Below, piece after piece: positions 41,630 to 64,000 of a stretch of 64,000 nt of DNA. The position numbers and the translations under genes were made by a program. This DNA comes from Parcubacteria group bacterium Gr01-1014_3 (GTDB lineage Bacteria > Patescibacteriota > Minisyncoccia > UBA6257 > WO2-44-18), in NCBI GenBank assembly GCA_007376445.1, contig VMGF01000001.1, forward strand, positions 114,875 through 178,874. The letters run 5' to 3'. The notes under the pieces were generated by a model. It ran no database searches. It was not told where the DNA came from and saw nothing but the letters and a program-made list of their open reading frames with translations. How positions within the stretch are numbered: position 1 is the first letter of the stretch; every line of letters starts with the position of its first letter.

Positions 41630-42739
41630 CTAGTACAACTTTAGATATTGTTGAACTTTGTTTTTCCAATCCATTGATCTCGCGAACTCAATGGATTTTT
41701 TTTGGAATCTTAACTTAGTTTCCGGAAAATTAAGAATTTTACTTATCGCCTCAGCGACGACTTTCGGATTCCCGCCATCAACTAAAAAACCGTTCTGATT
41801 ATCTAAAATCGCATCTTCAGCGCTGGTTCCACTCGCGCCTATCACTGGTAATCCGGCGGCGGCGGCCTCTAAAAAAACCAAGCCGAAACCTTCAATATCT
41901 TTTTTAAAATCTTGGGGCAATAAAATAAACAACTCGGCATTTTTATATAAATCTACCAACTCTTCGTCTGATATGTGCCGATTTAGGGCATATGATAAAA
42001 ATTCTACTCGATTAGAAACTCCTAAGCTTTCGGAAAGGCTGCGCAAATTTTTATATTCGTCTCCTTTGCCGAATATTAAGTAACGTAAACTGGGGAAATT
42101 TTTACTAATCTCCGCGAAAGCCCGGATTGAATATTCTAAACCCTTTCTTTTCTTAAGAGCGCCAACGCTTAGAATATATGGTTTTAATTTTTGAAATTCT
42201 GAATTTGTTTGTGCTTTGAAATTTGAAATTTGAAATTTATCGTTATCTACTCCGTGATTAATAACCTCTATCTTTAGATCCGGGAAAATCTTTAAAATTT
42301 CCCGCTTGGTGTTATTGCTAATGGCGGTTAACTGATCAGCTCGCCGATAAGCCCAGCCGAGCAAGGCCCTCTTAATTGGGCTATATAATGGCTTTACGGC
42401 GCCTGTGCCGATGGCCGTGATAATAAGCCGTTTTTTAAGGCCAAATGAAGCTAATGCCGCTATAAAGCCATACGGCCATCCATCTAGGGCATGTATTAAG
42501 TCGCCATTCTTAATGATCGCTCTGATTTTAGAAAAAGTAAGCAACAATCTAAATCGGTTGGAGGGCAATAATGATCGGGATGGAAACTGACTATCCGGAT
42601 CAGCTTCCGAACTAAGAAGCTGCAGATCCAGATCCGGACAAGCCAACTTAATACCGCTGATCAGCGCTCGGCCGAAACGACCAGCGCCGGTGTTGGGATG
42701 AAAGTCATGGTTTAGGTAAACAATTTTCATGGGGTTCAT
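41630..42739 (-). CDS. GT4 glycosyltransferase (GT-B fold), 369 aa
   Basis: C-terminal EGFGLVFLEAAAAGLPVIGASGT (EX7E-type GT4 motif). Confidence 0.8.
   Translation of the reverse strand: MNPMKIVYLNHDFHPNTGAGRFGRALISGIKLACPDLDLQLLSSEADPDSQFPSRSLLPSNRFRLLLTFSKIRAIIKNGDLIHALDGWPYGFIAALASFGLKKRLIITAIGTGAVKPLYSPIKRALLGWAYRRADQLTAISNNTKREILKIFPDLKIEVINHGVDNDKFQISNFKAQTNSEFQKLKPYILSVGALKKRKGLEYSIRAFAEISKNFPSLRYLIFGKGDEYKNLRSLSESLGVSNRVEFLSYALNRHISDEELVDLYKNAELFILLPQDFKKDIEGFGLVFLEAAAAGLPVIGASGTSAEDAILDNQNGFLVDGGNPKVVAEAISKILNFPETKLRFQKKSIEFARSMDWKNKVQQYLKLY
42215..42238. repeat. Heptanucleotide tandem repeat (TTTGAAA)x3 plus TTT inside the GT4 interdomain linker
   Basis: Direct reading: tttgaaatttgaaatttgaaattt. 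On the coding strand it encodes KFQISNF within KFQISNFKAQTNSEF. Confidence 0.7.
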
Positions 42740-46892: not shown

Positions 46893-47981
46893 TTAAAGCA
46901 GCGTCACAATTCTTTCGACAAGCCGATTCAAGCTATGTTTTTCTTTAATAATATCGCGAAGCTTCATGCCGATTCTTCGTTTTTCCTCCGTTGGTAAAGC
47001 CACAAAGCCGTTTATTTTTTTCTGAAGATCTTCGGCCGCGCCCTCCTTAAACATTAGGAGGTTCTTAAGCTCCTGGTCAAAATATTCCTCAAAAGCCGGA
47101 TTGCTTACGAATACCGGCACACCACAGGACATTGATTCTAATGTGCTTTTATCAAAACTTCCGGCGACCGTAAGATTAACAAAAAAATCGTGATTCTGAT
47201 AAATCGAAACAGTTCTATTGTTAGCGACCCGGCCAACAAAGGTTACTCGTCCTCCAAGATCAAGTTCACGCGCCATTCTCTTTATATTTTCATAATACGC
47301 TCCCTCGATCGGCTTGCCGATCGTGGGTTCTCCGACAATAGTTAAGGTTGTATCAGGAATATTTTGAACGACGCTTTTTACGGCCAGCAATAAAGTTTCG
47401 ATATTCTTGACCGGGGTAATTCTACCTAAAAATAACACTTTATGGCCTGGAGTTTTAGGTAGTACCAGCGGAATGAAGTGGTCCGTATCAATTCCCTGCT
47501 GGAGAACGCGCAATTTCTTGCTGATCAGCGGATAGGCCAGCCGGGTTGAGGTCACGATAATGTTCGCAAAAAACGCGGCCAGGCGTAATTTAAGATTGGC
47601 CAAATAATGCGCGTACCATAGAATTATTTTCTTTCCTGTTAATCGCCACCACCACCCGGCCAAAATCACGTATTCGGGATTCATGTGGACAAATACTGTG
47701 TCGTAATCTTTTCTTAACAGCCAAATATATTTATAAAATCGCCAGGCATAAATAATTTTCAAAAACCACTTCCTAATTCCTAATTCTTGATTCTTAATTC
47801 TTAATGTCTCTTTGCCAAGCGAATAAACCCGTACATTGGCCGGCAATTCGGTGCGGCCTTGATATAAACAAATAGCATTCAGGATCTCGACCTTCTTGGC
47901 CAATTCTTCGATCCAGCGGTGATAGGCGCCAAGCGCATCGTCGTTCAAATCTACCTTTTGAGTAATAAAAAGAATTCTCAT
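46893..47981 (-). CDS. GT4 glycosyltransferase
   Basis: TLESMSCGVPVFVSNPAFEEYF C-terminal GT4 motif. Start trimmed to the ATG at 47981 (MRILFITQK), which avoids overlapping the epimerase gene. Confidence 0.75.
   Translation of the reverse strand: MRILFITQKVDLNDDALGAYHRWIEELAKKVEILNAICLYQGRTELPANVRVYSLGKETLRIKNQELGIRKWFLKIIYAWRFYKYIWLLRKDYDTVFVHMNPEYVILAGWWWRLTGKKIILWYAHYLANLKLRLAAFFANIIVTSTRLAYPLISKKLRVLQQGIDTDHFIPLVLPKTPGHKVLFLGRITPVKNIETLLLAVKSVVQNIPDTTLTIVGEPTIGKPIEGAYYENIKRMARELDLGGRVTFVGRVANNRTVSIYQNHDFFVNLTVAGSFDKSTLESMSCGVPVFVSNPAFEEYFDQELKNLLMFKEGAAEDLQKKINGFVALPTEEKRRIGMKLRDIIKEKHSLNRLVERIVTLL
47770..47804. repeat. Degenerate heptanucleotide tandem repeat (TTCYTRA)x5 inside the GT4 N-domain
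   Basis: Direct reading: ttcctaa ttcctaa ttcttga ttcttaa ttcttaa. It encodes RIKNQELGIRK on the coding strand. Confidence 0.6.
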
Positions 47982-49519: not shown

Positions 49520-50641
49520 CGAAGCCTGGTAGTCCCGCAAATACTCCGCTTTGGTGCGGAAATGATCGGCGGTCGTGATTCCTTGGCTGCTGAATGCGTT
49601 ATGCTCTGTCGGATTCATGCCGATGAACTGATTTATCCTATCCGCCAAAGCCTTCCAATCTCCAACTGGCACCACGAACCCATTTTGGCCATTTATCACG
49701 AATTCATTAGCCGGCGCTACGTCAGTCATGATTACCGGTAAGCCATTTGCCATTGCCTCAATAGGAGATCTTGCGCCGCCTTCATAATTAGAAGTTAATA
49801 CGAACAAGTCAGCCGTTTTGTAATAAGAAATAATATCATTGGTCCAGGGCTCAAATATGACATTGTCGGCTAATCGATTTTTTTCAATAAGAGCTTTGAG
49901 TTTTTTTTCTTCCGGTCCGCCGCCAACAATTAATAACAAAGACCCGGGGTTTCTTTTCATGACTTCGGCCATCGCGCGTATTGCTAAGCCAATATTCTTC
50001 TCGGTGCTTAACCGAGAAGCTGCCAAAATAATAAAATCGTGATTGGAATATTTTTTGCGCAGATTAGTTTTAATAGGATAATGCTTGACCGAATCAAGAT
50101 CAAAGATAATTGGCAAAACAACAATCTTAGCGGCGGGAACATCTAAAATGTTTACCAATGAGCGCTTAACTCTTTCGCTAACAACGCGAATCCCGTCCGC
50201 TTTTTTGATAAGCCATTTTCCCAACAAAACTCTAGCTTTATTTTTAAATGACTCCTTCCAAAAATAGGGGCTGAGAAAATCGCTGTGACTCTGAATTTGG
50301 AAGGACAATCGAAATTTTATTTTTAAAAAATAACTCACCAGGGCAGTTTCAAACGGATCCTGAGAGCTTATGACCGCATTATCAACTAGAAACTGAGAGT
50401 TACGGATGATTTTCTTGCCAATCAAATAAGCGTCAATAAAATATAATGGTTTGAATTGAGTGTTGGTCGGATGCGCAAAAACATTTTTACTCAGCTCTTG
50501 ATCATGCATTCCCAATTTCTTATGGGTGTAAACGATTATATGTAGTTCATTAAACAATTTTCCATATTCAATCATCCTCTCCCATGTTGGAGAATTTTTT
50601 ATGAAGACATTCTGATCCGTTGAGAGCATTAAAATTTTCAT
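49478..50641 (-). CDS. GT4 glycosyltransferase, 387 aa
   Basis: EGGARSPIEAMANGLPVIMTDVAPANEFV GT4 motif. Confidence 0.8.
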   Translation of the reverse strand: MKILMLSTDQNVFIKNSPTWERMIEYGKLFNELHIIVYTHKKLGMHDQELSKNVFAHPTNTQFKPLYFIDAYLIGKKIIRNSQFLVDNAVISSQDPFETALVSYFLKIKFRLSFQIQSHSDFLSPYFWKESFKNKARVLLGKWLIKKADGIRVVSERVKRSLVNILDVPAAKIVVLPIIFDLDSVKHYPIKTNLRKKYSNHDFIILAASRLSTEKNIGLAIRAMAEVMKRNPGSLLLIVGGGPEEKKLKALIEKNRLADNVIFEPWTNDIISYYKTADLFVLTSNYEGGARSPIEAMANGLPVIMTDVAPANEFVINGQNGFVVPVGDWKALADRINQFIGMNPTEHNAFSSQGITTADHFRTKAEYLRDYQASLEVTLDSIFKNSK

Positions 50642-52863
50642 AGCGTTGATAGAAGTTGAGCTACTTGATTGATCGTATTTTCGATTGAGAATTGTTTAAC
50701 TTTTTCCTTGGCGTTTTTCGTAATCATCCCGCGAAATTCCGGATCACTATCAATCTTATGAATTGCCGCCAGAATCTCTTGTTTGTTATTCGGCTCAACC
50801 AAAATACCCTCTTTATTATTCTCCACGATTTCTGATAAATTGCCGATATTCGTGGTAATAACCGGCGCGCCAACATGCATCGCCTCAACTAACTGGAATG
50901 AGAAGCTTTCGAATGAAGTATTCAAAATAAAAATACCGGACTGCGCCAGTCGCCTTAACAACTCTTCCCTGGGAATCTGACCACTCAACAAAACCCTGCC
51001 TTGTAACTTTAAACTTTCAACTTTTAACTTAAGGGTTTCACTCTCGGGGCCATCGCCAATAATCTCAAGGCGCCAATCTGGTAATTCTTTCATGATTTCA
51101 ATTAGCACATCAAATCCTTTCCATGGCACCAGGCGACCGGCCGAGATAATAATCTTAGAGCGCTTAGCGCTTAGCGTGTTAGGATATAGGGGCTTTAAAT
51201 CAATTCCGTTATAAATTGCCCGGACTTTTTCCGGATGTTTGATCCAACCGCCAACCAGTTTCTGAAAATACTTGCTGGGTGTAATAACCGCATCGGCATT
51301 TCTTACGACAAACTTTTGAATCGCTCGCATCAATTCGACTCGCCAGCCATGTTTTTTGCTTTGAAATTCATCAATGCCGTCTTTTACGCCAAAACGCTGA
51401 ACGGACTGCTCCCAGACATAGTCACCCGGCACCCGAAGGACAAAGGGACGACCGAGAAGCTTCGCCGCTAAAAGCGCCGGCAGGCCAACGCTAATCGTAT
51501 CTTGGGCGAAAACAATATCCGCCTTCCTTGCCCTGCGAAGCGCCTTAAAAAAATACAACAAGTGCCTAACTCCCGGCGGCCAGCCACGCACGAGGCGGAA
51601 CGGTAAAACCGCTACCCCAAATCCTCGTTTCGGTAATTCTCGCTCCAGCAAAACGGCATAGGTGGCCGGCCCGCCGATTTCCGGCGGATAAATACCGGTA
51701 GCCAGAAGGACACGAATCATGAATCTAGAATCGTGAATCATGGAACGAAAAATTTTGTCCATCTTCTGAGAAATTAAATCCCATGAATAGTTGGCCAAAA
51801 TCAACTTTCGCCCATTTTCCGCAAGCCGCTCGCGGAGCTTCTGGTCATTTATCAGCTCGCTGATTTTTTTAGCCAGATCTTCCGAATCTTCTGAATTACA
51901 GATCAAGCCGGTTTCATTATGTTTCAAAAAATCTACGATACCCCCGACCGGTGTTCCAATAACCGGCAAGCCAGCCGCCATGGCTTCCAAGAAGGAGTTG
52001 CCCAATCCTTCCGAGCGTGATGCCCTGACAAAAATCTCCGCGAATCCTAAATATTGAGGAATCTTATCCGCAGAAACTTGCCCTAAGAAGCTCACTCGTG
52101 AGTTAACCCCCATATCATGGGCTAACTTTTCCAACGATGCTCGATCTGGTCCATCGCCTAAAATTTGTAAAGAATAATCTTGATTCTTCAGCCTTGCGAA
52201 TGCGCTAATTAAAATATCGACTCCATTCTTATGGACTAACCGTGAAGTAGTTATTATTATTTTATCGTTATTCTTGATTCTTGATTCTTGATTCTTGATT
52301 CTTGCCAGGTCGACTCCATTCGGCACTACCTCGATCGGGCAGATCGCCCCATGGCGGCGCGCGAAGTCGGCCAAATATCCGCTAATAGCTTGAATATAGT
52401 CCGCTTTTTTAAAGATCAATCTCCAGAGCGGATAAAATAAACCGACGCGGGATAGAATATGCCTCTCGCTATCACCCTCCTGAAGAGTAAGTAACATCGG
52501 TATTGATGGATGACGCAGTTTAAAGAAAAGAGCGGCCAACCCGCCATAAGATGCCATCATTGCCCAAATAGCCTCAAATTTATTCTTCTGATGTTCGCGC
52601 TCAGCCGCCCGCCAAGCGCGAAAAATGTAGGTCAGCTTTTCCCAAAAACGTCCATAGTAATCGGCCGTAGTTTTTGCCGAATTGCCGGTTCCTAGTCGAA
52701 CAACTTTAGTATTTTTTGTTTCGGAGGTAGCTGGCCAGGAATCGTCGAACTTGTGGGTAAAGATCGTAAAGTGATCGTTAGATTGGCTAACAATCTCCTT
52801 AAGCGCTATTTCGGCTCCTCCTGAAAATGGATCATAGGCCAGGCTAAAGACGGCAAGTTTCAT
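50638..52863 (-). CDS. Tandem GT4-GT4 fusion glycosyltransferase, 741 aa
   Basis: Two GT-B units. The first begins MKLAVFSLAYDPFSGGAEIAL and ends EGLGNSFLEAMAAGLPVIGTPVGG. The second begins IRVLLATGIYPPEIGGPATY and ends ESFSFQLVEAMHVGAPVITTNIGN. Confidence 0.8.
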   Translation of the reverse strand: MKLAVFSLAYDPFSGGAEIALKEIVSQSNDHFTIFTHKFDDSWPATSETKNTKVVRLGTGNSAKTTADYYGRFWEKLTYIFRAWRAAEREHQKNKFEAIWAMMASYGGLAALFFKLRHPSIPMLLTLQEGDSERHILSRVGLFYPLWRLIFKKADYIQAISGYLADFARRHGAICPIEVVPNGVDLARIKNQESRIKNNDKIIITTSRLVHKNGVDILISAFARLKNQDYSLQILGDGPDRASLEKLAHDMGVNSRVSFLGQVSADKIPQYLGFAEIFVRASRSEGLGNSFLEAMAAGLPVIGTPVGGIVDFLKHNETGLICNSEDSEDLAKKISELINDQKLRERLAENGRKLILANYSWDLISQKMDKIFRSMIHDSRFMIRVLLATGIYPPEIGGPATYAVLLERELPKRGFGVAVLPFRLVRGWPPGVRHLLYFFKALRRARKADIVFAQDTISVGLPALLAAKLLGRPFVLRVPGDYVWEQSVQRFGVKDGIDEFQSKKHGWRVELMRAIQKFVVRNADAVITPSKYFQKLVGGWIKHPEKVRAIYNGIDLKPLYPNTLSAKRSKIIISAGRLVPWKGFDVLIEIMKELPDWRLEIIGDGPESETLKLKVESLKLQGRVLLSGQIPREELLRRLAQSGIFILNTSFESFSFQLVEAMHVGAPVITTNIGNLSEIVENNKEGILVEPNNKQEILAAIHKIDSDPEFRGMITKNAKEKVKQFSIENTINQVAQLLSTL
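52280..52314. repeat. Perfect heptanucleotide tandem repeat (ATTCTTG)x5 inside the tandem GT4 gene
   Basis: Direct reading: attcttg x5 (35 nt), preceded by (TTA)x3. On the coding strand it encodes ARIKNQESRIKNN, in the interdomain linker just before the C-terminal Rossmann domain (IITTSRL). Confidence 0.85.
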
Positions 52864-58939: not shown

Positions 58940-59599
58940 TTATTTTATTACATAATAGCTTGCCGGCCCTCCATTCCCTACCCTCTCAATTAAGCCCTGG
59001 GCGCACAGTTTTTGGAGATCATATCGCATAGTCCTTTCGCTGACTTCCGGGAATGCGGCAATGATATCCTTAAGCGGCAAATTGCCGGCTTGCCCGCCTC
59101 TGGCGTTGGATTGCCGGATTTTGTCCAAAATTGCCGATTGCCGGATTGTTGCCGTAATACCGTTACCGTTTGCCTGGTTCATTGCCGAATCCTGCATTAT
59201 ACCTGGCAATGGTCTTGCCGAACCCTCATTAACAATTGCCGCATTAGTGGTTGGAAGGGTAATTGGCTGTTTGGAAAACATAGATTCCAATACCGGTACA
59301 CCTGTATTTGCCGAATCTAATTCGGCAATTTGCCGGATTGCCGCATTCAAGGCGCCGAACTCCCGCAAAAGCACCAATGCATTATTTTTCTCTATCTCAT
59401 AGACCTGCTTACCAAGTTCCACGAGGACCGAAAGAGAAGTCAGGGTCCTGATCCCCGCTTTAAGGTCTTCCGTAGCTACCTGTTCGGCTAGCTGAAAGGC
59501 TAACTGCTCGATGCGCTCTTTAAGGTAGGTCCGGCGGATGTATACGGCAACCCGAAACAGGGCATAAGAAATTTCTTTGGCTTTTTGATCAATAGACAT
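58940..59599 (-). CDS. Transcriptional regulator with C-terminal DeoR-type HTH domain, 219 aa
   Basis: SAILDKIRQSN...LPLKDIIAAFPEVSERTMRYDLQKLCAQGLIERVGNGGPASYYV fits the DeoR HTH pattern. Helical N-terminal domain of unknown family. Confidence 0.55.
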   Translation of the reverse strand: MSIDQKAKEISYALFRVAVYIRRTYLKERIEQLAFQLAEQVATEDLKAGIRTLTSLSVLVELGKQVYEIEKNNALVLLREFGALNAAIRQIAELDSANTGVPVLESMFSKQPITLPTTNAAIVNEGSARPLPGIMQDSAMNQANGNGITATIRQSAILDKIRQSNARGGQAGNLPLKDIIAAFPEVSERTMRYDLQKLCAQGLIERVGNGGPASYYVIK

Positions 59600-59715
59600 T
59601 AGATATCAGTATAATTACAATAAGTTAAAAGTCCATCAGGTCTATAAAGTCCATAAAGCTTTAAAGACTTTAAGAACTTTCGACTTTAGACTATCCTATG
59701 CTCCAATTTATACTT

Positions 59716-60465
59716 CTATGCAATTAGTGACCACTCGGTACTGGCAAAAATAAGTAGCGACAAGACAATAAAAATTGTAAGGTCGGTTAAAATCATCTTT
59801 CGATTTAGCGTTTTATTAATATACCCATCAGTTAAATCGGTTAGCGCGAAATAACCTAACAAAACCAGACTTGCCGCGTTCAGCGAGGTAAGAGGCAACA
59901 ACCTGGCAACGAGTGAGAGCTCTAGTAAAATCAGCGCGGCCGAAAGCGTAAGAGTTCGATTTTTTCCGCCTGAGGCGGATCCTCCTTCGGAGGAAAATAC
60001 TCCATGGAAAACCAAGCAATATCCAATAAATAACACGACTGTTTTTAAAACTAAGCCAGAAAAAGCTGCGGAGTTAAAGAACAAAAACGCCATGGCGAGA
60101 ACCAGAGCCAGGGCAATAAACCTGGACCAAGCTTCGCGTCTAATCAAAACCAGGTCTTTCACCCCCAAGATCAAGTAGAAAATTACCGAGGCAAATACCG
60201 CCGAGCCAAGAAAATAATCAAAATTATTCAGCAGATTCGCGAAAATTATCGAGACCACCAGAAGCAAAGTTAAATTGTTAAGTTGGCTAGTGGGATTAAA
60301 GATCGGCTTGAAATACAAAAAAGACGCCACGAATATGAAAAATAGAACCGGAAATAATCCTAAATTACCGATCTTGGCCAGCACCAAAAACCCGCCGAAA
60401 ATAAGCGCCTTAACGGCTAACCGTAATTGCTGACTGTGAAAAACTGATTTTAACTTTGTCACCAT
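59716..60465 (-). CDS. Hypothetical polytopic membrane protein (about 250 aa, roughly 7 TM)
   Basis: Highly hydrophobic throughout; no recognisable motif. Start is uncertain and overlaps the clpB 3' end. Confidence 0.4.
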   Translation of the reverse strand: MVTKLKSVFHSQQLRLAVKALIFGGFLVLAKIGNLGLFPVLFFIFVASFLYFKPIFNPTSQLNNLTLLLVVSIIFANLLNNFDYFLGSAVFASVIFYLILGVKDLVLIRREAWSRFIALALVLAMAFLFFNSAAFSGLVLKTVVLFIGYCLVFHGVFSSEGGSASGGKNRTLTLSAALILLELSLVARLLPLTSLNAASLVLLGYFALTDLTDGYINKTLNRKMILTDLTIFIVLSLLIFASTEWSLIA

Positions 60466-63019
60466 CTTTAATTTCTCCACCGATAATCTTATCGGCCAAT
60501 TTATCTAGTATAGCTTTTTGGATCATTCGCTTGATCGGACGGGCTCCATAATCAGGATCAAAACCATTTTCCACGATATACTTCTTAGCCGACTGGTCAA
60601 TGTTAATAACAATGTCCCGATCCTTTAGACGATTTTTAACAAGACCGATCTGAATATCCACGATCTTCTCGATATCCGCCTTCTTTAAGGCGTTGAAGAC
60701 TACCACCTCATCAATGCGGTTCAAGAACTCCGGCCGGAAAGTATTTCTTAGTGATTCCCGGACTTTTTCCTTAAAATCAGCTTCTTTAGCCGAAGCGTCA
60801 TTGCTATTTCCTGATGCAAAACCGATATTAGACATTGCTTTAAAGTAATGACTGCCCACGTTCGATGTCATGATGATGATCGTGTTCTTGAAGTTAACCA
60901 CCTTGCCCTTGCTGTCGGTTAACCGGCCATTATCCAGGATCTGAAGTAGTATATTGAAAACCTCTGGATGGGCTTTCTCGATCTCATCAAACAAGATCAG
61001 GCTATATGGGCGATGTCGGACAATCTCAGTCAGCTGACCGCCGTCTTCATGACCCACATATCCCGGCGGCGAACCGATTAAGCGGGCTACGGAGTGCTTT
61101 TCCATATATTCGGACATATCAATACGCACCAATGCCTTATCATCGTTAAACATAAACTCTGCCAAAGCCTTGGCGAGTTCAGTTTTACCTACACCAGTCG
61201 GACCAAGAAACATAAATGAGCCCAATGGCCGATTGTCATCGGACAAACCGGCTCTGGCGCGGCGCAAAGCGCTGGCGGCGGCCTTAATGCCTTCTTCCTG
61301 GCCGACCACCCGTTCCGTCAACACTTCTTCTAACCTCATAAGCTTCTTGCTCTCAGACTCCAGCATCCGATGAACCGGAATTCCGGTCCAGCGCGCGACC
61401 ACCGCGGCAATATCTTCCTCTCCAATCGCCTCTTTAATAGAGGAAAACAGCTTCTTTTTCTCAAAGTTTTTATAGTCTTTTTCCGCCTGCGGCAATTCCC
61501 CATAAATGATCTGCGCCACACGCTCTAAGCTGCCCTCGCGTTCAGCCAATTCGGACTCTCTACGGAGATCGTCTATTTTCTTCCGAAGAATGTTCATCTT
61601 CTCAAAAGCGGCCTTCTCGGCATTCCAATCAGAAGAAAGATCATCGCTTTTGTCTTTAAGCTTGGAAATCTTGACATCCAGCGCCTTTAAGCGGACTTTA
61701 TTTTTAGACGGACTTTCTTTGGCAATCGCGGAACGCTCGATCTCAAATCGAGTAACTTCGCGGCGCGCCTTATCCACATCCACTGGAACCGTCTCGGTTT
61801 CCAAGCGCTGGGCGGCGGAGGCTTCGTCAATCAAATCAATCGCCTTGTCCGGCAAGAAACGGTCGGTAATATACCGAGCGGAAAGATTAACTGCCGCCAC
61901 GATAGCCTCATCGCTGATCCTCAGCCCGTGATGGGATTCATATTTTTCCTTCAAACCGCGCAAAATCGAGATCGCGTCCTCGGTGCTCGGTTCCTCAACC
62001 ATGACCGGCTGAAAACGGCGCTCTAAGGCCGGGTCTTTTTCGATATGCCGTTGATACTCTTTAATAGTAGTCGCGCCAATAGCGTGAAGTTCGCCTCGGG
62101 CAAGCGGCGGCTTTAATAAATTGGAGGCGTCTATCGCTCCTTCGGCGGCTCCTGCGCCGACAATCATATGAATCTCGTCTATAAATAGGATCAGGCGTCC
62201 GGCCGAATTCTGGATTTCCTTCACAAAAGCCTTCAGGCGATCCTCGAACTCACCTCGGAATTTGGTCCCGGCGATCAAAGAACCAAGATCCAACATAATG
62301 ATCTCCTTGTCTTTGAGGGTTTCCGGTACATCCCCGGAGACTATTCTCTGAGCCAAACCTTCGACTATCGCTGTCTTACCCACACCCGACTCGCCGATCA
62401 AAACCGGATTATTCTTAGTTCGGCGGGAAAGAACCTGAATTAAGCGGCGAAGCTCCTCATCCCGGCCGATAACCGGATCTAACTTTCCAGCCCGGGCTTT
62501 ATCGGTCAGATTAATAGCGTATTTCTCCAAAACCTGGAACTTGCTCTCCGGAGTCTCATCGGTAACCCGGGTGGAACCACGGAGTTGAGCTAAAGCCCGG
62601 AAAGCAGCATCGCGACGCACGCCCACCTTCTCCATGATCTTCTGAGCGGCGGAAGGGGTCTCGATAATGCTTAAAAGTAAGTGCTCGCAGGAGATATATT
62701 CGTCTTTTTGGGAAACGGCTATTTTACCGGCGCGGTCTAACACCGCCATCAGTTCTGGCGACAAATAGAGCTGACCGGTGCTAGACGCGGCAAAGATCTT
62801 CGGAGTCTTCTTGAGCTCATCCTCTAATTCCTTAAAAAGCTGATCTAAATTGATACCGGCCTTAACCAGCATCGGGCGAACCAAGGTCTGCTCGTCGTTT
62901 AAAAGCGTGTATAAAAGGTGAGGAACTTTAAACTCACCGTGATTTTTCTGACTCGCCAACTCCTGGGCGGCCTGCAGGGCCTCTTGGGCACGAATCGTAA
63001 AACGATTAAATGATGCCAT
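60410..63019 (-). CDS. clpB: ATP-dependent chaperone/disaggregase ClpB, 869 aa
   Basis: N-domain [22 protein letters not shown]; two AAA+ modules ([15 protein letters not shown] Walker A and [17 protein letters not shown] Walker A2); coiled-coil middle domain. Confidence 0.95.
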
Positions 63020-63138: not shown

Positions 63139-64000
63139 CTATTTTGACAATATTGCCGTAACTAAAATTTTCGCTGCGCGGTCAATCTCCGCCTGAGTAG
63201 TCTGTCTACCAAAAGAAAATCGCAGACTTTGCGAGGCACGGTCTTCTGAAAATCCCATCGCTTCCAACACAAACGAGGCCTTAGAGGTCCGCGTAGAGCA
63301 GGCCGCGCCTGGAGACACGGAAGCTCCCGCCAGATCCAATTTGATCAATAATTCCTGAGCCGATTTTCCTGGGAAATAAATATTTAAATTATTCGGCAAG
63401 CGGTATTTCATAGAACCATTCAATTGCATTGAAGCCCCTCGACTTCGCTCGGGGACTAATATTTTCCGAGCCTGTCGAGGAACTACTTTTATTTTTTGGA
63501 GTTCTTTCCAAAAATAATCACGCAACTCGCCAACCCGTTTTGATTCCCGATTTTGCATGGCCATGCTCAACTCTACCGCCTTCGCGAAACCAACGATATA
63601 AGGGACATTATCCGTCCCGGATCGTAAGCCAAACTCCTGGCCAGAACCAGTAATGATAGGGTGTAGCCAATAGCCAATAGGGGCTAGCGAGCCCTTCGGC
63701 TGTTCGCCACTAAACCCTAAACCCTTTGCCCTATGCCCTCGTACATACAACGCCCCAATCCCCTTCGGTCCATAAATTTTGTGCGCGGAAAGAGTCATGA
63801 GATCTACTCCCAGCTCATTTACGTTGCAATCCAAATACTGAAAGGCTTGTACGGCGTCGGTGTGGAAAAGAGGATAGGCAGAATTTTTAATTTTCAATTT
63901 CCAATTTTTAATTATGGAAGAAATTTCAGAGATGGGCTGTATCGTGCCGACCTCATTATTCGCCATCATCACCGAAACTAAAACCGTCCGGTCATTAAGA
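63139..64000 (-). CDS. Cysteine desulfurase (NifS/IscS, class V aminotransferase), N-terminus beyond the window edge
   Basis: MTLSAHKIYGPKGIGALYVRG contains the PLP-lysine motif SAHKxxGPKG. Only the C-terminal 277 aa are shown. Confidence 0.8.
   Translation of the reverse strand, partial: LNDRTVLVSVMMANNEVGTIQPISEISSIIKNWKLKIKNSAYPLFHTDAVQAFQYLDCNVNELGVDLMTLSAHKIYGPKGIGALYVRGHRAKGLGFSGEQPKGSLAPIGYWLHPIITGSGQEFGLRSGTDNVPYIVGFAKAVELSMAMQNRESKRVGELRDYFWKELQKIKVVPRQARKILVPERSRGASMQLNGSMKYRLPNNLNIYFPGKSAQELLIKLDLAGASVSPGAACSTRTSKASFVLEAMGFSEDRASQSLRFSFGRQTTQAEIDRAAKILVTAILSK

What the first reader, a model, noticed from the sequence alone, without database searches (positions are those of the whole stretch)
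52280..52314. Perfect (ATTCTTG)x5 heptanucleotide tract in the tandem GT4 gene; similar heptad tracts in two other GT4 genes suggest phase variation
Three glycosyltransferase genes each contain a heptanucleotide tandem repeat. Five perfect ATTCTTG units occur in the interdomain linker of the GT4-GT4 fusion (protein ARIKNQESRIKNN). Three TTTGAAA units occur at 42215..42238 in the GT-B linker of another GT4 (KFQISNF). Five degenerate TTCYTRA units occur at 47770..47804 in a third GT4 (RIKNQELGIRK). Gain or loss of one or two heptad units by slipped-strand mispairing shifts the frame, while three units (21 nt) inserts exactly seven residues into a tolerant linker. This is the classic design of contingency loci for surface-glycan variation in host-associated bacteria, and it has not to my knowledge been described in streamlined genomes of this kind.
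Basis: seen in the sequence. Interest (0 to 1): 0.65.

Follow-up and report, generated by a model that had tools for sequence, protein, structure and literature searches.

The report
Seven-base repeats inside CPR glycosyltransferase genes
A perfect five-copy seven-base repeat sits in frame inside a sugar-transferase gene of a groundwater Parcubacteria genome; it belongs to a strongly enriched class of such repeats in these genes across related bacteria, but nothing I could test shows it working as a fast on/off switch.

Summary
The repeat is real but lies at 52270..52304, 10 bases left of the stated coordinates. (ATTCTTG)x5 is read on the minus strand as (CAAGAAT)5 and encodes ARIKNQESRIKNN in the flexible linker of the first GT4 module of a 741-aa GT4-GT4 fusion. 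The other two tracts are confirmed.

It is not a one-off. In 80 orthologous Patescibacteria loci plus the window (about 1.5 Mb), period 7 dominates all tandem repeats. 88 of 102 period-7 arrays lie in GT4 ORFs, which cover 29% of the bases. They sit at a few recurrent structural positions and almost always span 4-5 units (30-35 nt).

The contingency-locus reading is only partly supported. Adding or removing 1-2 units truncates the protein at once, and frameshift-type repeats are GT4-specific. Against it:
- none of the 88 tracts is in an OFF state;
- copy number is narrow and the same in every assembly compared;
- tracts are identical between diverged species;
- similar tracts occur in PolA, AspRS and NifS, including NifS in this window.

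Heptanucleotides are already known as the commonest long repeat class in bacteria (Mrazek 2007).

Most likely this is a slippage-born repeat fixed in frame. It is weakly mutable at most and turns over on evolutionary time, not as a rapid switch.

The parts
52270..52304 (-). Perfect heptanucleotide repeat. It reads (ATTCTTG)5 on the plus strand and (CAAGAAT)5 on the coding strand, and encodes residues 187-198 (ARIKNQESRIKN).
   Evidence: AlphaFold gives a short helix at 186-193, then coil up to strand 201-205. Mean pLDDT is 59 for residues 191-200.
50638..52863 (-). GT4-GT4 fusion glycosyltransferase gene (741 aa) that hosts the tract. It is 100% identical to a protein of Parcubacteria group bacterium Gr01-1014_3.
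   Evidence: The fused family (about 720-800 aa) is conserved in Patescibacteria.
52175..52196 (-). Degenerate two-unit relative of the same heptad (TAATCTTGATTCTTC...), 94 nt from the main tract.
   Evidence: family D5
51714..51742 (-). Degenerate (ATGATTC)x4 array on the coding strand. It encodes MIHDSRFMIRV at the junction of the two GT4 modules. Its unit is the reverse complement of a one-mismatch variant of the main unit.
   Evidence: Junction tracts occur in five orthologues (HMM position about 385). Unfused relatives have two overlapping genes here.
51005..51030 (-). Degenerate (TAAAGTT)x3.7 array encoding LKLKVESLKLQ, the helix after GDGP of the second module.
   Evidence: Helix 608-617 is predicted at high pLDDT. 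This is the commonest tract hot spot in orthologues (HMM 621-625).
51159..51176 (-). Perfect (AGCGCTT)x2.6 short heptad run in the same gene.
47770..47805 (-). Degenerate GAATYAR-type array (5.1 units, 89% matches) encoding LRIKNQELGIRK in the N-terminal domain of a second GT4 gene (46893..47981 as called). It is 83% identical to the main tract over 35 nt.
   Evidence: family D1
42215..42238 (-). Perfect (AAATTTC)x3.4 tract on the coding strand, encoding KFQISNFK in the interdomain linker of a third GT4 gene (41630..42739).
63882..63913 (-). Degenerate (AAAATTR)x4.6 array encoding IIKNWKLKIKNS in a class-V aminotransferase (NifS/IscS-like). This shows the phenomenon is not confined to surface genes.
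   Evidence: A metagenome relative carries (AGAATCA)4.6 in the same loop (L118).

Best explanation
The (ATTCTTG)5 tract is a genuine heptanucleotide simple-sequence repeat, created by 7-nt strand slippage. Seven bases is the unit size already known to dominate long repeats in bacterial genomes. The tract has been fixed in frame as the coding sequence of a flexible interdomain linker of a GT4 glycosyltransferase.

It is one member of a lineage-wide class. In Patescibacteria, 4-5-unit (30-35 nt) stop-free, A-rich heptad tracts encode, and often replace, a few surface segments of GT4 enzymes. These segments are the linker after NGVD, the helix after GDGP, and the junction of fused modules. Because 7 and 3 share no factor, each tract reads as the same 7-residue periodic peptide in every frame.

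Shown:
- the tract, its position and its coding consequences;
- the class and its GT4 specificity;
- in-frame fixation and the length cap.

Inferred:
- Tracts arise and are homogenised by slippage on evolutionary timescales, probably through transient out-of-frame intermediates. These would be survivable because individual GT4 genes are dispensable.
- Purifying selection against frameshift load caps tracts at about 5 units.
- At 5 units the tract is at most weakly mutable. It is a source of long-term diversification of glycan enzymes, not a rapid ON/OFF switch.
For: Tract and coding effect.

Linker location:
- The A1 alignment shows this is the most length-variable segment of the family.
- AlphaFold gives low pLDDT (59) for residues 191-200, between the two Rossmann-like halves.

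Period 7 dominates in relatives:
- 104 perfect runs of at least 10 at lag 7, against 22 or fewer at any other lag.
- 25 runs of at least 21 at lag 7, against 0-2 at other lags, in 1.47 Mb.

GT4 specificity:
- 67 of 72 perfect tracts lie in GT4 ORFs.
- 88 of 102 TRF period-7 arrays lie in GT4 ORFs.
- In other ORFs the periods are multiples of 3 (12: 33, 15: 19, 9: 12) and period 7 is rare (6).

Length cap: 59 of 88 tracts are 30-35 nt, and almost none exceeds 5.5 units.

Recurrent structural positions.

The tract replaces the native helix without changing its length.

Fixation in frame: no frameshifted allele at any tract.

No copy-number difference between assemblies.

Turnover on long timescales: at the same helix site, different species carry perfect tracts of related but different units (AAATTAC, AAGTTAC, AAGCTAC, AACTTAC, AAACTAC). 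This implies that substitutions spread through all units.

General heptad bias:
- Contigs with GC from 0.27 to 0.71 that carry (AAGAATC)n are also rich in other heptad tracts.
- Mrazek 2007, as summarised in PMC4679880 and PMC4692102.
Against: - A polymerase bias plus tolerant loops does not explain why GT4 genes are about 30-fold richer in heptads than neighbouring genes, yet no richer in in-frame repeats.
- Stepwise slippage needs out-of-frame intermediates, and none was seen.
- Tracts are codon-identical between genes of only 26-69% amino-acid identity: 38 of 39 codons match, against 39-58% elsewhere in the same genes. Even an imperfect unit pattern is conserved between L004 and L005. This looks like nucleotide-level constraint or recent transfer, not drift.
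- Units are shared within a genome at non-homologous sites more often than between genomes (5.9% against 1.2%, permutation P = 0.0045). This hints at copying between sites.
- All sequences are consensus assemblies, so minority variants are invisible.
Confidence: 0.5

Rival explanations
1. This is a true contingency locus. Slipped-strand mispairing changes the unit number, switching the GT4-GT4 enzyme (and the other tract-bearing GTs) OFF and ON within populations. This varies the surface glycan of an episymbiont against hosts or phages. Only one ON length is structurally allowed, so consensus assemblies always show it.
For: - A non-triplet repeat lies in a glycan gene, and stop codons follow immediately after +/-1 or 2 units.
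- Enrichment of frameshift-type repeats, but not in-frame repeats, is specific to GT4 genes.
- 31 of 88 tracts are perfect.
- Units are homogenised across a tract at homologous sites in different species, which needs repeated gain and loss of units.
- There is precedent for heptanucleotide switches in glycan-modifying enzymes and adhesins: neuO AAGACTC (PMC13001214) and the H. influenzae hmw loci (PMC2651432).
Against: - 0 of 88 tracts is OFF in about 80 species-level genomes, against 65.6% OFF for neuO.
- Only 4-5 units are present, against 3-53 in neuO and 13-38 in hmw.
- There are no longer tracts even in linkers that tolerate 7-33 residues.
- Copy number is invariant in every multi-assembly comparison available.
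- Identical imperfect tracts are conserved between species.
- Comparable tracts sit in essential genes.
Confidence: 0.25
2. The tracts are recombination joints. Tracts of the same unit, about 30-35 nt long, at domain boundaries of different GT4 modules allow homologous or microhomology-mediated exchange of acceptor and donor domains, and gene fusion. Because a 7-nt repeat can be aligned in three registers, an in-frame join is always available whatever the phase of the two genes.
For: - Tracts sit at module and domain boundaries.
- The same or near-same units recur at several sites in one genome: GAATYAR-type units at several sites in L002, AAATGTC at 3 sites in L050, and paired units in L005.
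- The fusion junction itself is a heptad tract here and in five orthologues, while unfused relatives lack it.
- Alleles within 90% clusters are mosaic, and fused or split.
- Identical tracts occur in otherwise distant GT4 genes.
Against: - No recombinant with a breakpoint at a tract was found. The one mosaic block examined (P0163 against P0064) has the tract inside it, not at its edge.
- Many genomes carry only unlike units.
- Within-genome sharing is modest (19.6% against 8.6% at one mismatch or fewer).
- This does not explain tracts in PolA, AspRS or NifS.
Confidence: 0.08
3. Selection acts on the peptide. The 7-residue periodic peptides (RIKNQES, KLQITNY, KSQISNL and others) are wanted as amphipathic helix or linker sequences, or as shared interaction tags among GTs. 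The DNA repeat is only how they were made.
For: - At the helix after GDGP, tract-encoded peptides all fit the native L-x3-I-x2-L/Y-x-L pattern, and segment length is preserved.
- That segment is predicted as a confident helix.
- A 7-nt repeat gives exactly a 7-residue, two-turn period.
Against: - Peptide selection would not keep synonymous sites identical or repeats perfect.
- The linker tract in the window is predicted with low confidence and largely as coil.
- Odd peptides such as KCQMSNV recur at non-homologous sites.
Confidence: 0.07
4. The tract is a nucleic-acid signal in DNA or mRNA, for example an unstructured A/C-rich platform for a heptamer-binding protein such as a cold-shock protein or S1. 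It would affect translation or coupling inside the operon.
For: - Conservation is at the nucleotide level.
- The coding strand of the tracts is A-rich and G-poor (A 44%, G 10%, against 28% and 24% in GT4 ORFs).
- CspB binding to heptamer repeats is noted in PMC4679880.
Against: - Units are very diverse.
- No Rfam family matches.
- No promoter- or terminator-like signal lies at the tract.
- Positions track protein structure, not gene starts.
Confidence: 0.03

Closest known systems
neuO (E. coli K1 capsule O-acetyltransferase) heptanucleotide contingency locus, (AAGACTC)n
   Same: It is a heptanucleotide repeat inside the coding sequence of a surface-glycan-modifying enzyme. It encodes a 7-residue periodic peptide, and a one-unit change shifts the frame. 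The unit is of similar type: AAGACTC against AAGAATC here. One orthologue tract (L061) even mixes AAGACTC and AAGAATC units.
   Different: The neuO tract is at the 5' end, ranges from 3 to 53 units, varies within cultures, and is OFF in 65.6% of genomes (PMC13001214). Here the tract is mid-gene in a linker, has 5 units, is capped at about 5 in all relatives, is never OFF, and showed no variation.
Long simple-sequence repeats with 5-11 nt units in bacterial genomes (Mrazek, Guo and Shah 2007), including cyanobacterial STRR, Xanthomonas/Nostoc GGGAATC-type and Beggiatoaceae TAACTGA heptamers
   Same: Unit size 7 is over-represented relative to all other sizes. Arrays are short, a few units long. 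Several different heptads can lie adjacent or inverted (seen in metagenome loci L096, L115, L164, L097, L204). Polymerase slippage with a 7-nt footprint has been proposed.
   Different: Those repeats are described as mainly intergenic, and non-triplet units are reported as avoided in coding regions. Here they are in frame inside genes and are concentrated in one enzyme family at fixed structural positions.
Haemophilus influenzae and Neisseria repeat-mediated phase variation of LOS or pilin glycosyltransferases (tetranucleotide tracts; heptanucleotide CAAACAA in Neisseria pglE, from my own knowledge)
   Same: Glycosyltransferase genes are the preferred hosts of frameshift-type repeats, and several GT genes in one glycan locus carry tracts.
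   Different: Those organisms are host-restricted pathogens with long, polymorphic tracts and documented ON/OFF states (PMC2651432). None of these properties was found here.

Membership tests
Repeat-mediated phase-variable contingency locus | Tandem repeat whose unit is not a multiple of 3, lying inside an ORF or promoter | tested here: met
   Perfect 7-nt x5 tract inside ORF 50638..52863
Repeat-mediated phase-variable contingency locus | Gain or loss of units abolishes the full-length product | tested here: met
   In silico, +/-1 or 2 units gives 193-206 aa, and +/-3 units gives 734 or 748 aa
Repeat-mediated phase-variable contingency locus | Repeat number varies between strains or within populations | tested here: not met
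   The window and an ENA contig are identical. Five assemblies of a relative carrying (AATCAAG)3.4 and (AAAATCA)4.4 show no 7-nt indel. A flank-anchored scan of metagenome contigs found no other allele. Only consensus sequences were available, and reads were not.
Repeat-mediated phase-variable contingency locus | Both ON and OFF alleles are found among genomes | tested here: not met
   0 of 88 tracts in GT4 ORFs of about 80 species-level loci is associated with a frameshift. The only broken genes are single-A deletions or a nonsense codon away from tracts.
Repeat-mediated phase-variable contingency locus | Tract long enough to be hypermutable | tested here: inconclusive
   The tract has 5 units, and the class is capped at about 5. 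Documented heptanucleotide switches mostly have 13-53 units. No rate could be measured.
Bacterial heptanucleotide long-repeat class (Mrazek 2007) | Perfect tandem array longer than chance, with 7-nt units over-represented relative to other unit sizes in the same genome | tested here: met
   Lag-7 excess in the window, in 80 related loci and in 120 metagenome contigs
Bacterial heptanucleotide long-repeat class (Mrazek 2007) | Predominantly intergenic, with non-triplet units avoided in coding regions | tested here: not met
   94 of 102 period-7 arrays are inside ORFs, 88 of them in GT4
GT4 (GT-B fold) glycosyltransferase, host gene | Glyco_transf_4 N-domain plus Glycos_transf_1 C-domain, forming two Rossmann-like halves joined by a linker | tested here: met
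   Pfam gives two stretches of each domain. The AlphaFold model shows two successive alternating strand/helix modules, mean pLDDT 87. No structure search was run.
neuO-type poly-heptad N-terminal extension | Tract at the 5' end of the ORF, forming a variable N-terminal extension | tested here: not met
   The tract is at codons 187-198 of 741, in an internal linker

The most novel reading that the evidence does not exclude
Heptanucleotide tracts are a lineage-wide evolvability device targeted at GT4 genes in Candidate Phyla Radiation bacteria. They are kept just below the instability threshold. They cycle through rare out-of-frame states, and possibly recombine with one another in any reading frame. 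This continually rewrites linkers, helices and module junctions, and occasionally silences or fuses glycosyltransferases. It would amount to a slow contingency or shuffling system for surface glycans in episymbionts with minimal genomes.
Probability: 0.25. Interest if true: 0.75.

Novelty: new variant of a known kind. Interest (0 to 1): 0.55.

Why it matters
Candidate Phyla Radiation bacteria live attached to host cells, and almost nothing is known about how they vary their surfaces. Suppose the heptad tracts prove to be even weakly switchable, or to mediate domain exchange. They would then be the first repeat-based variation system described in this radiation, acting on the largest enzyme family of its glycan loci.

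Even on the conservative reading, the pattern is a clean natural experiment. Frameshift-type repeats are about 30-fold concentrated in one enzyme family, are capped at about 35 nt, and are conserved to the nucleotide between diverged genes. This bears on how slippage bias, gene dispensability and protein structure together shape coding sequence. It also shows that a motif that looks like a contingency locus cannot be read as phase variation without population data.

Tried and rejected
- **Strain variants.** A flank-anchored variable-gap search of metagenome contigs found nothing. The only other contig with this protein is identical.
- **Truncated or split cluster members as OFF alleles.** All cases turned out to be contig ends, natural two-gene arrangements, single-A deletions in low-coverage or long-read assemblies, or breaks away from tracts.
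- **L054 short GT4 ORF.** It is an in-frame TAA replacing the conserved Glu, 116 nt from the tract. It is not a slip.
- **Compositional artefact.** Rejected. Markov-3 simulations give 0.13 lag-7 runs against 5 observed, and other lags are not enriched.
- **Assembly artefact.** Rejected. The tracts occur in assemblies from many groups and assemblers and are always in frame.
- **A specific protein-binding site or a GANTC methylation motif.** Considered because each ATTCTTG junction makes GATTC. Rejected because units are highly diverse.
- **Known RNA family.** None found.
- **Promoter or terminator at the tract.** None above shuffled expectation.
- **Long-range pairing between the main tract and the inverted junction tract.** It gives only 6-bp blocks with mismatches, so I did not pursue it.
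- **Literature.** No paper in the searchable library links Patescibacteria or the Candidate Phyla Radiation with phase variation or repeats in glycosyltransferases.
Full report
**Observation**

The window contains a perfect (ATTCTTG)5 tract, but at 52270..52304, ten bases left of the coordinates given. It lies in the minus-strand ORF 50638..52863 (741 aa). On the coding strand it reads (CAAGAAT)5 and encodes ARIKNQESRIKN(N). Pfam finds two complete GT4 modules in this protein. The protein is 100% identical to a hypothetical protein of Parcubacteria group bacterium Gr01-1014_3. The same 22 kb occurs without a single difference on an ENA contig.

- Perfect (TTTGAAA)3.4 at 42215..42238.
- A degenerate 5.1-unit array at 47770..47805. 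This one sits in the N-terminal domain of its GT4, not in the interdomain linker.

- 51714..51742, which encodes the junction of the two modules (MIHDSRFMIRV).
- 51005..51030, which encodes the helix LKLKVESLKLQ.
- 51159..51176.

A class-V aminotransferase at the end of the window holds three more.

**Is it more than chance?**

Yes. Perfect same-lag runs of at least 10 occur 5 times at lag 7, against 0.13 expected from Markov-3 simulations and 0-1 at any other lag. Four of the five are in GT4 ORFs that cover 10.9% of the window (P = 6e-4).

**Consequences for the protein**

Adding or removing one or two units gives products of 193-206 aa that end just after the tract. Three units change the length by exactly seven residues. 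AlphaFold (mean pLDDT 87) places residues 186-193 in a short helix followed by coil up to strand 201-205. Mean pLDDT is 59 for residues 191-200. This is the flexible linker between the two halves of the first module. It is also the most length-variable segment of the family alignment.

**The wider pattern**

The nearest homologue (74% identity over aligned positions; 71% by BLASTP) lacks the tract. More distant orthologues have similar peptides at the same place, for example TRIRNNELRIKNES and TRIMNHESGIRNES. A syntenic relative carries GAATYAR-type heptads at several sites in its GT genes.

I fetched 80 orthologous loci from species-representative genomes, all Patescibacteria. In their 1.47 Mb:
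- Perfect runs of at least 10 number 104 at lag 7, against 22 or fewer at any other lag.
- Runs of at least 21 number 25 at lag 7, against 0-2 elsewhere.
- Of 72 perfect tracts in these loci, L002, L003 and the window, 67 are inside GT4-like ORFs.
- With Tandem Repeats Finder (TRF, score at least 40), period 7 gives 88 arrays in GT4 ORFs, 6 in other ORFs and 8 outside ORFs. GT4 ORFs make up 29% of the bases (P about 3e-33).
- In other ORFs the periods are multiples of three, as expected, and GT4 genes are not enriched for those.

So GT4 genes are not generally tolerant of repeats. They are specifically rich in heptads. The 88 arrays lie in 63 of 341 GT4-like ORFs, and 31 are perfect. Their length is sharply peaked: 59 of 88 are 30-35 nt (4-5 units), and very few are longer.

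They cluster at a few positions of the GT4 fold:
- the linker after NGVD;
- the helix after GDGP;
- the junction of fused modules;
- the equivalent positions in the second module.

At the helix site the tract replaces the native sequence without changing its length. Units are diverse, stop-free on the coding strand, A-rich and G-poor.

**Tests of phase variation**

A search for GT4 genes split by a frameshift, with contiguous profile coordinates across the break, found no case at a tract. It returned only natural two-gene arrangements, single-A deletions in low-coverage or long-read assemblies, and, in a separate check, one nonsense codon away from a tract. Members of 90% protein clusters showed no indel at a heptad tract.

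A relative that carries the same unit as the window, (AATCAAG)3.4, plus a perfect (AAAATCA)4.4, shows no 7-nt indel among five aligned assemblies from different wells and replicates.

Tracts at homologous sites are identical codon for codon between genes of 26-69% amino-acid identity. In tracts 38 of 39 codons match, against 39-58% elsewhere in the same genes. One imperfect unit pattern is shared by two species.

By contrast, the proven heptanucleotide switch neuO ranges from 3 to 53 units and is OFF in 65.6% of complete genomes (PMC13001214). H. influenzae heptad loci have 13-38 units (PMC2651432).

On the other side, perfect tracts of related but different units occupy the same helix site in different species (AAATTAC, AAGTTAC, AAGCTAC, AACTTAC, AAACTAC). 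This means substitutions have spread through all units, so slippage turnover does occur on long timescales.

**Not confined to surface genes or to this lineage**

Only 3 tracts were in GT4 genes. Most had 3-5 units and a few had 7-15. Those contigs are also rich in other heptad tracts, often adjacent or inverted.

By my reading of the translated flanks, without a Pfam check, the low-GC examples sit in PolA, AspRS and a P-type ATPase. One sits in the very loop of NifS that carries a heptad array in this window.

That heptanucleotides are the commonest long repeat class in most bacterial genomes, perhaps because of a 7-nt polymerase footprint, was reported by Mrazek and colleagues in 2007, as summarised in PMC4679880 and PMC4692102. 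Those accounts describe non-triplet units as avoided in coding regions. That is the respect in which the present pattern differs.

**Interpretation**

The most economical reading is that the tract is a slippage-born heptanucleotide repeat fixed in frame as linker-coding sequence. It is one of a lineage-wide class embedded in GT4 genes.

Two features point to a balance between slippage-driven growth and selection against frameshift load:
- the specificity for frameshift-type repeats in GT4 genes;
- the cap at about 5 units.

The intermediates would be passable only in individually dispensable genes such as paralogous glycosyltransferases. This makes the tract at most a weak, slow contingency element.

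However, every comparative test I could run came out against it.

Two observations remain unexplained by simple slippage and keep more interesting readings alive, such as recombination joints that work in any frame, or nucleotide-level function:
- the nucleotide-level identity of tracts between distant genes;
- the excess sharing of units between non-homologous sites within a genome (5.9% against 1.2%, P = 0.0045).

**Novelty**

Searches of the held literature found nothing that links Patescibacteria or the Candidate Phyla Radiation with phase variation or repeats in glycosyltransferases. The single tract is a new member of a known kind. The family-wide, structure-locked, in-frame heptad pattern is a new variant of it.

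Noticed in passing
window 63139..63972 (minus strand): 63664..63680, 63710..63725, 63882..63913: A class-V aminotransferase (NifS/IscS-like) carries three short heptad arrays in what look like loop insertions. One reads TTTAGGG x2.3 on the coding strand. A metagenome relative (L118) has (AGAATCA)4.6 in the same loop as 63882..63913.
   Followed up: partly
window 51714..51742; loci L059, L062, L073, L082: The junction of the two GT4 modules is itself a degenerate heptad array containing ATG codons. Several relatives instead have two separate, overlapping genes with no tract. A 7-nt duplication may have served as the frame adapter that fused the genes.
   Followed up: partly
proteins P0004, P0023, P0026, P0051, P0064, P0066 (linker regions): Homologue linkers also contain peptides such as LPAGEAG, PACRQ, PAGRQG and PALSAGR. 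These look like translated GC-rich palindromic insertions. One is a 7-residue indel between strains (P0147 against P0053).
   Followed up: no
L041 1327..1467: Two long adjacent non-coding heptad arrays, (TGCTAGG)11.1 and (TAGGTAG)9.7, lie in a Patescibacteria contig. Heptads can therefore grow well beyond 5 units outside genes.
   Followed up: no
L094, L096, L097, L115, L143, L164, L204 (metagenome contigs, GC 0.59-0.69): AT-rich (AAGAATC)n tracts occur in high-GC genomes, flanked by other heptad arrays (for example CTCTTGG x6, CGTTTTA x5) or by inverted heptad arrays that could form hairpins. They often lie just upstream of or at gene starts.
   Followed up: partly
L054 6372..6374: A GT4 gene is interrupted by an in-frame TAA where the conserved Glu is expected before AMAAGLPVV (sequence EGWGRAVI*AMAAGLPVV). 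This is a pseudogene or a sequencing error.
   Followed up: yes
proteins P0163 against P0064, P0167 against P0064, P0175/P0176 against P0066: Alleles within 90% clusters are mosaic. In one, a block of about 160 residues around the first linker is replaced. In another, a different heptad-type peptide sits at the same site (QKNQKSKIKNQK against FSIFNFQFS). In a third, the two modules are fused or split.
   Followed up: partly
window 59628..59692: The intergenic region between an HTH-domain ORF (58940..59599) and ORF 59716..60480 holds overlapping period-9 and period-7 repeats and a 19-nt near-palindrome (59645..59672).
   Followed up: no
L084, L085, L086: Three assemblies of one Hainich-aquifer population share several single-A deletions that fragment the GT4 fusion gene, while the sequence is otherwise identical to intact assemblies. 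These are probably homopolymer sequencing or assembly errors.
   Followed up: yes
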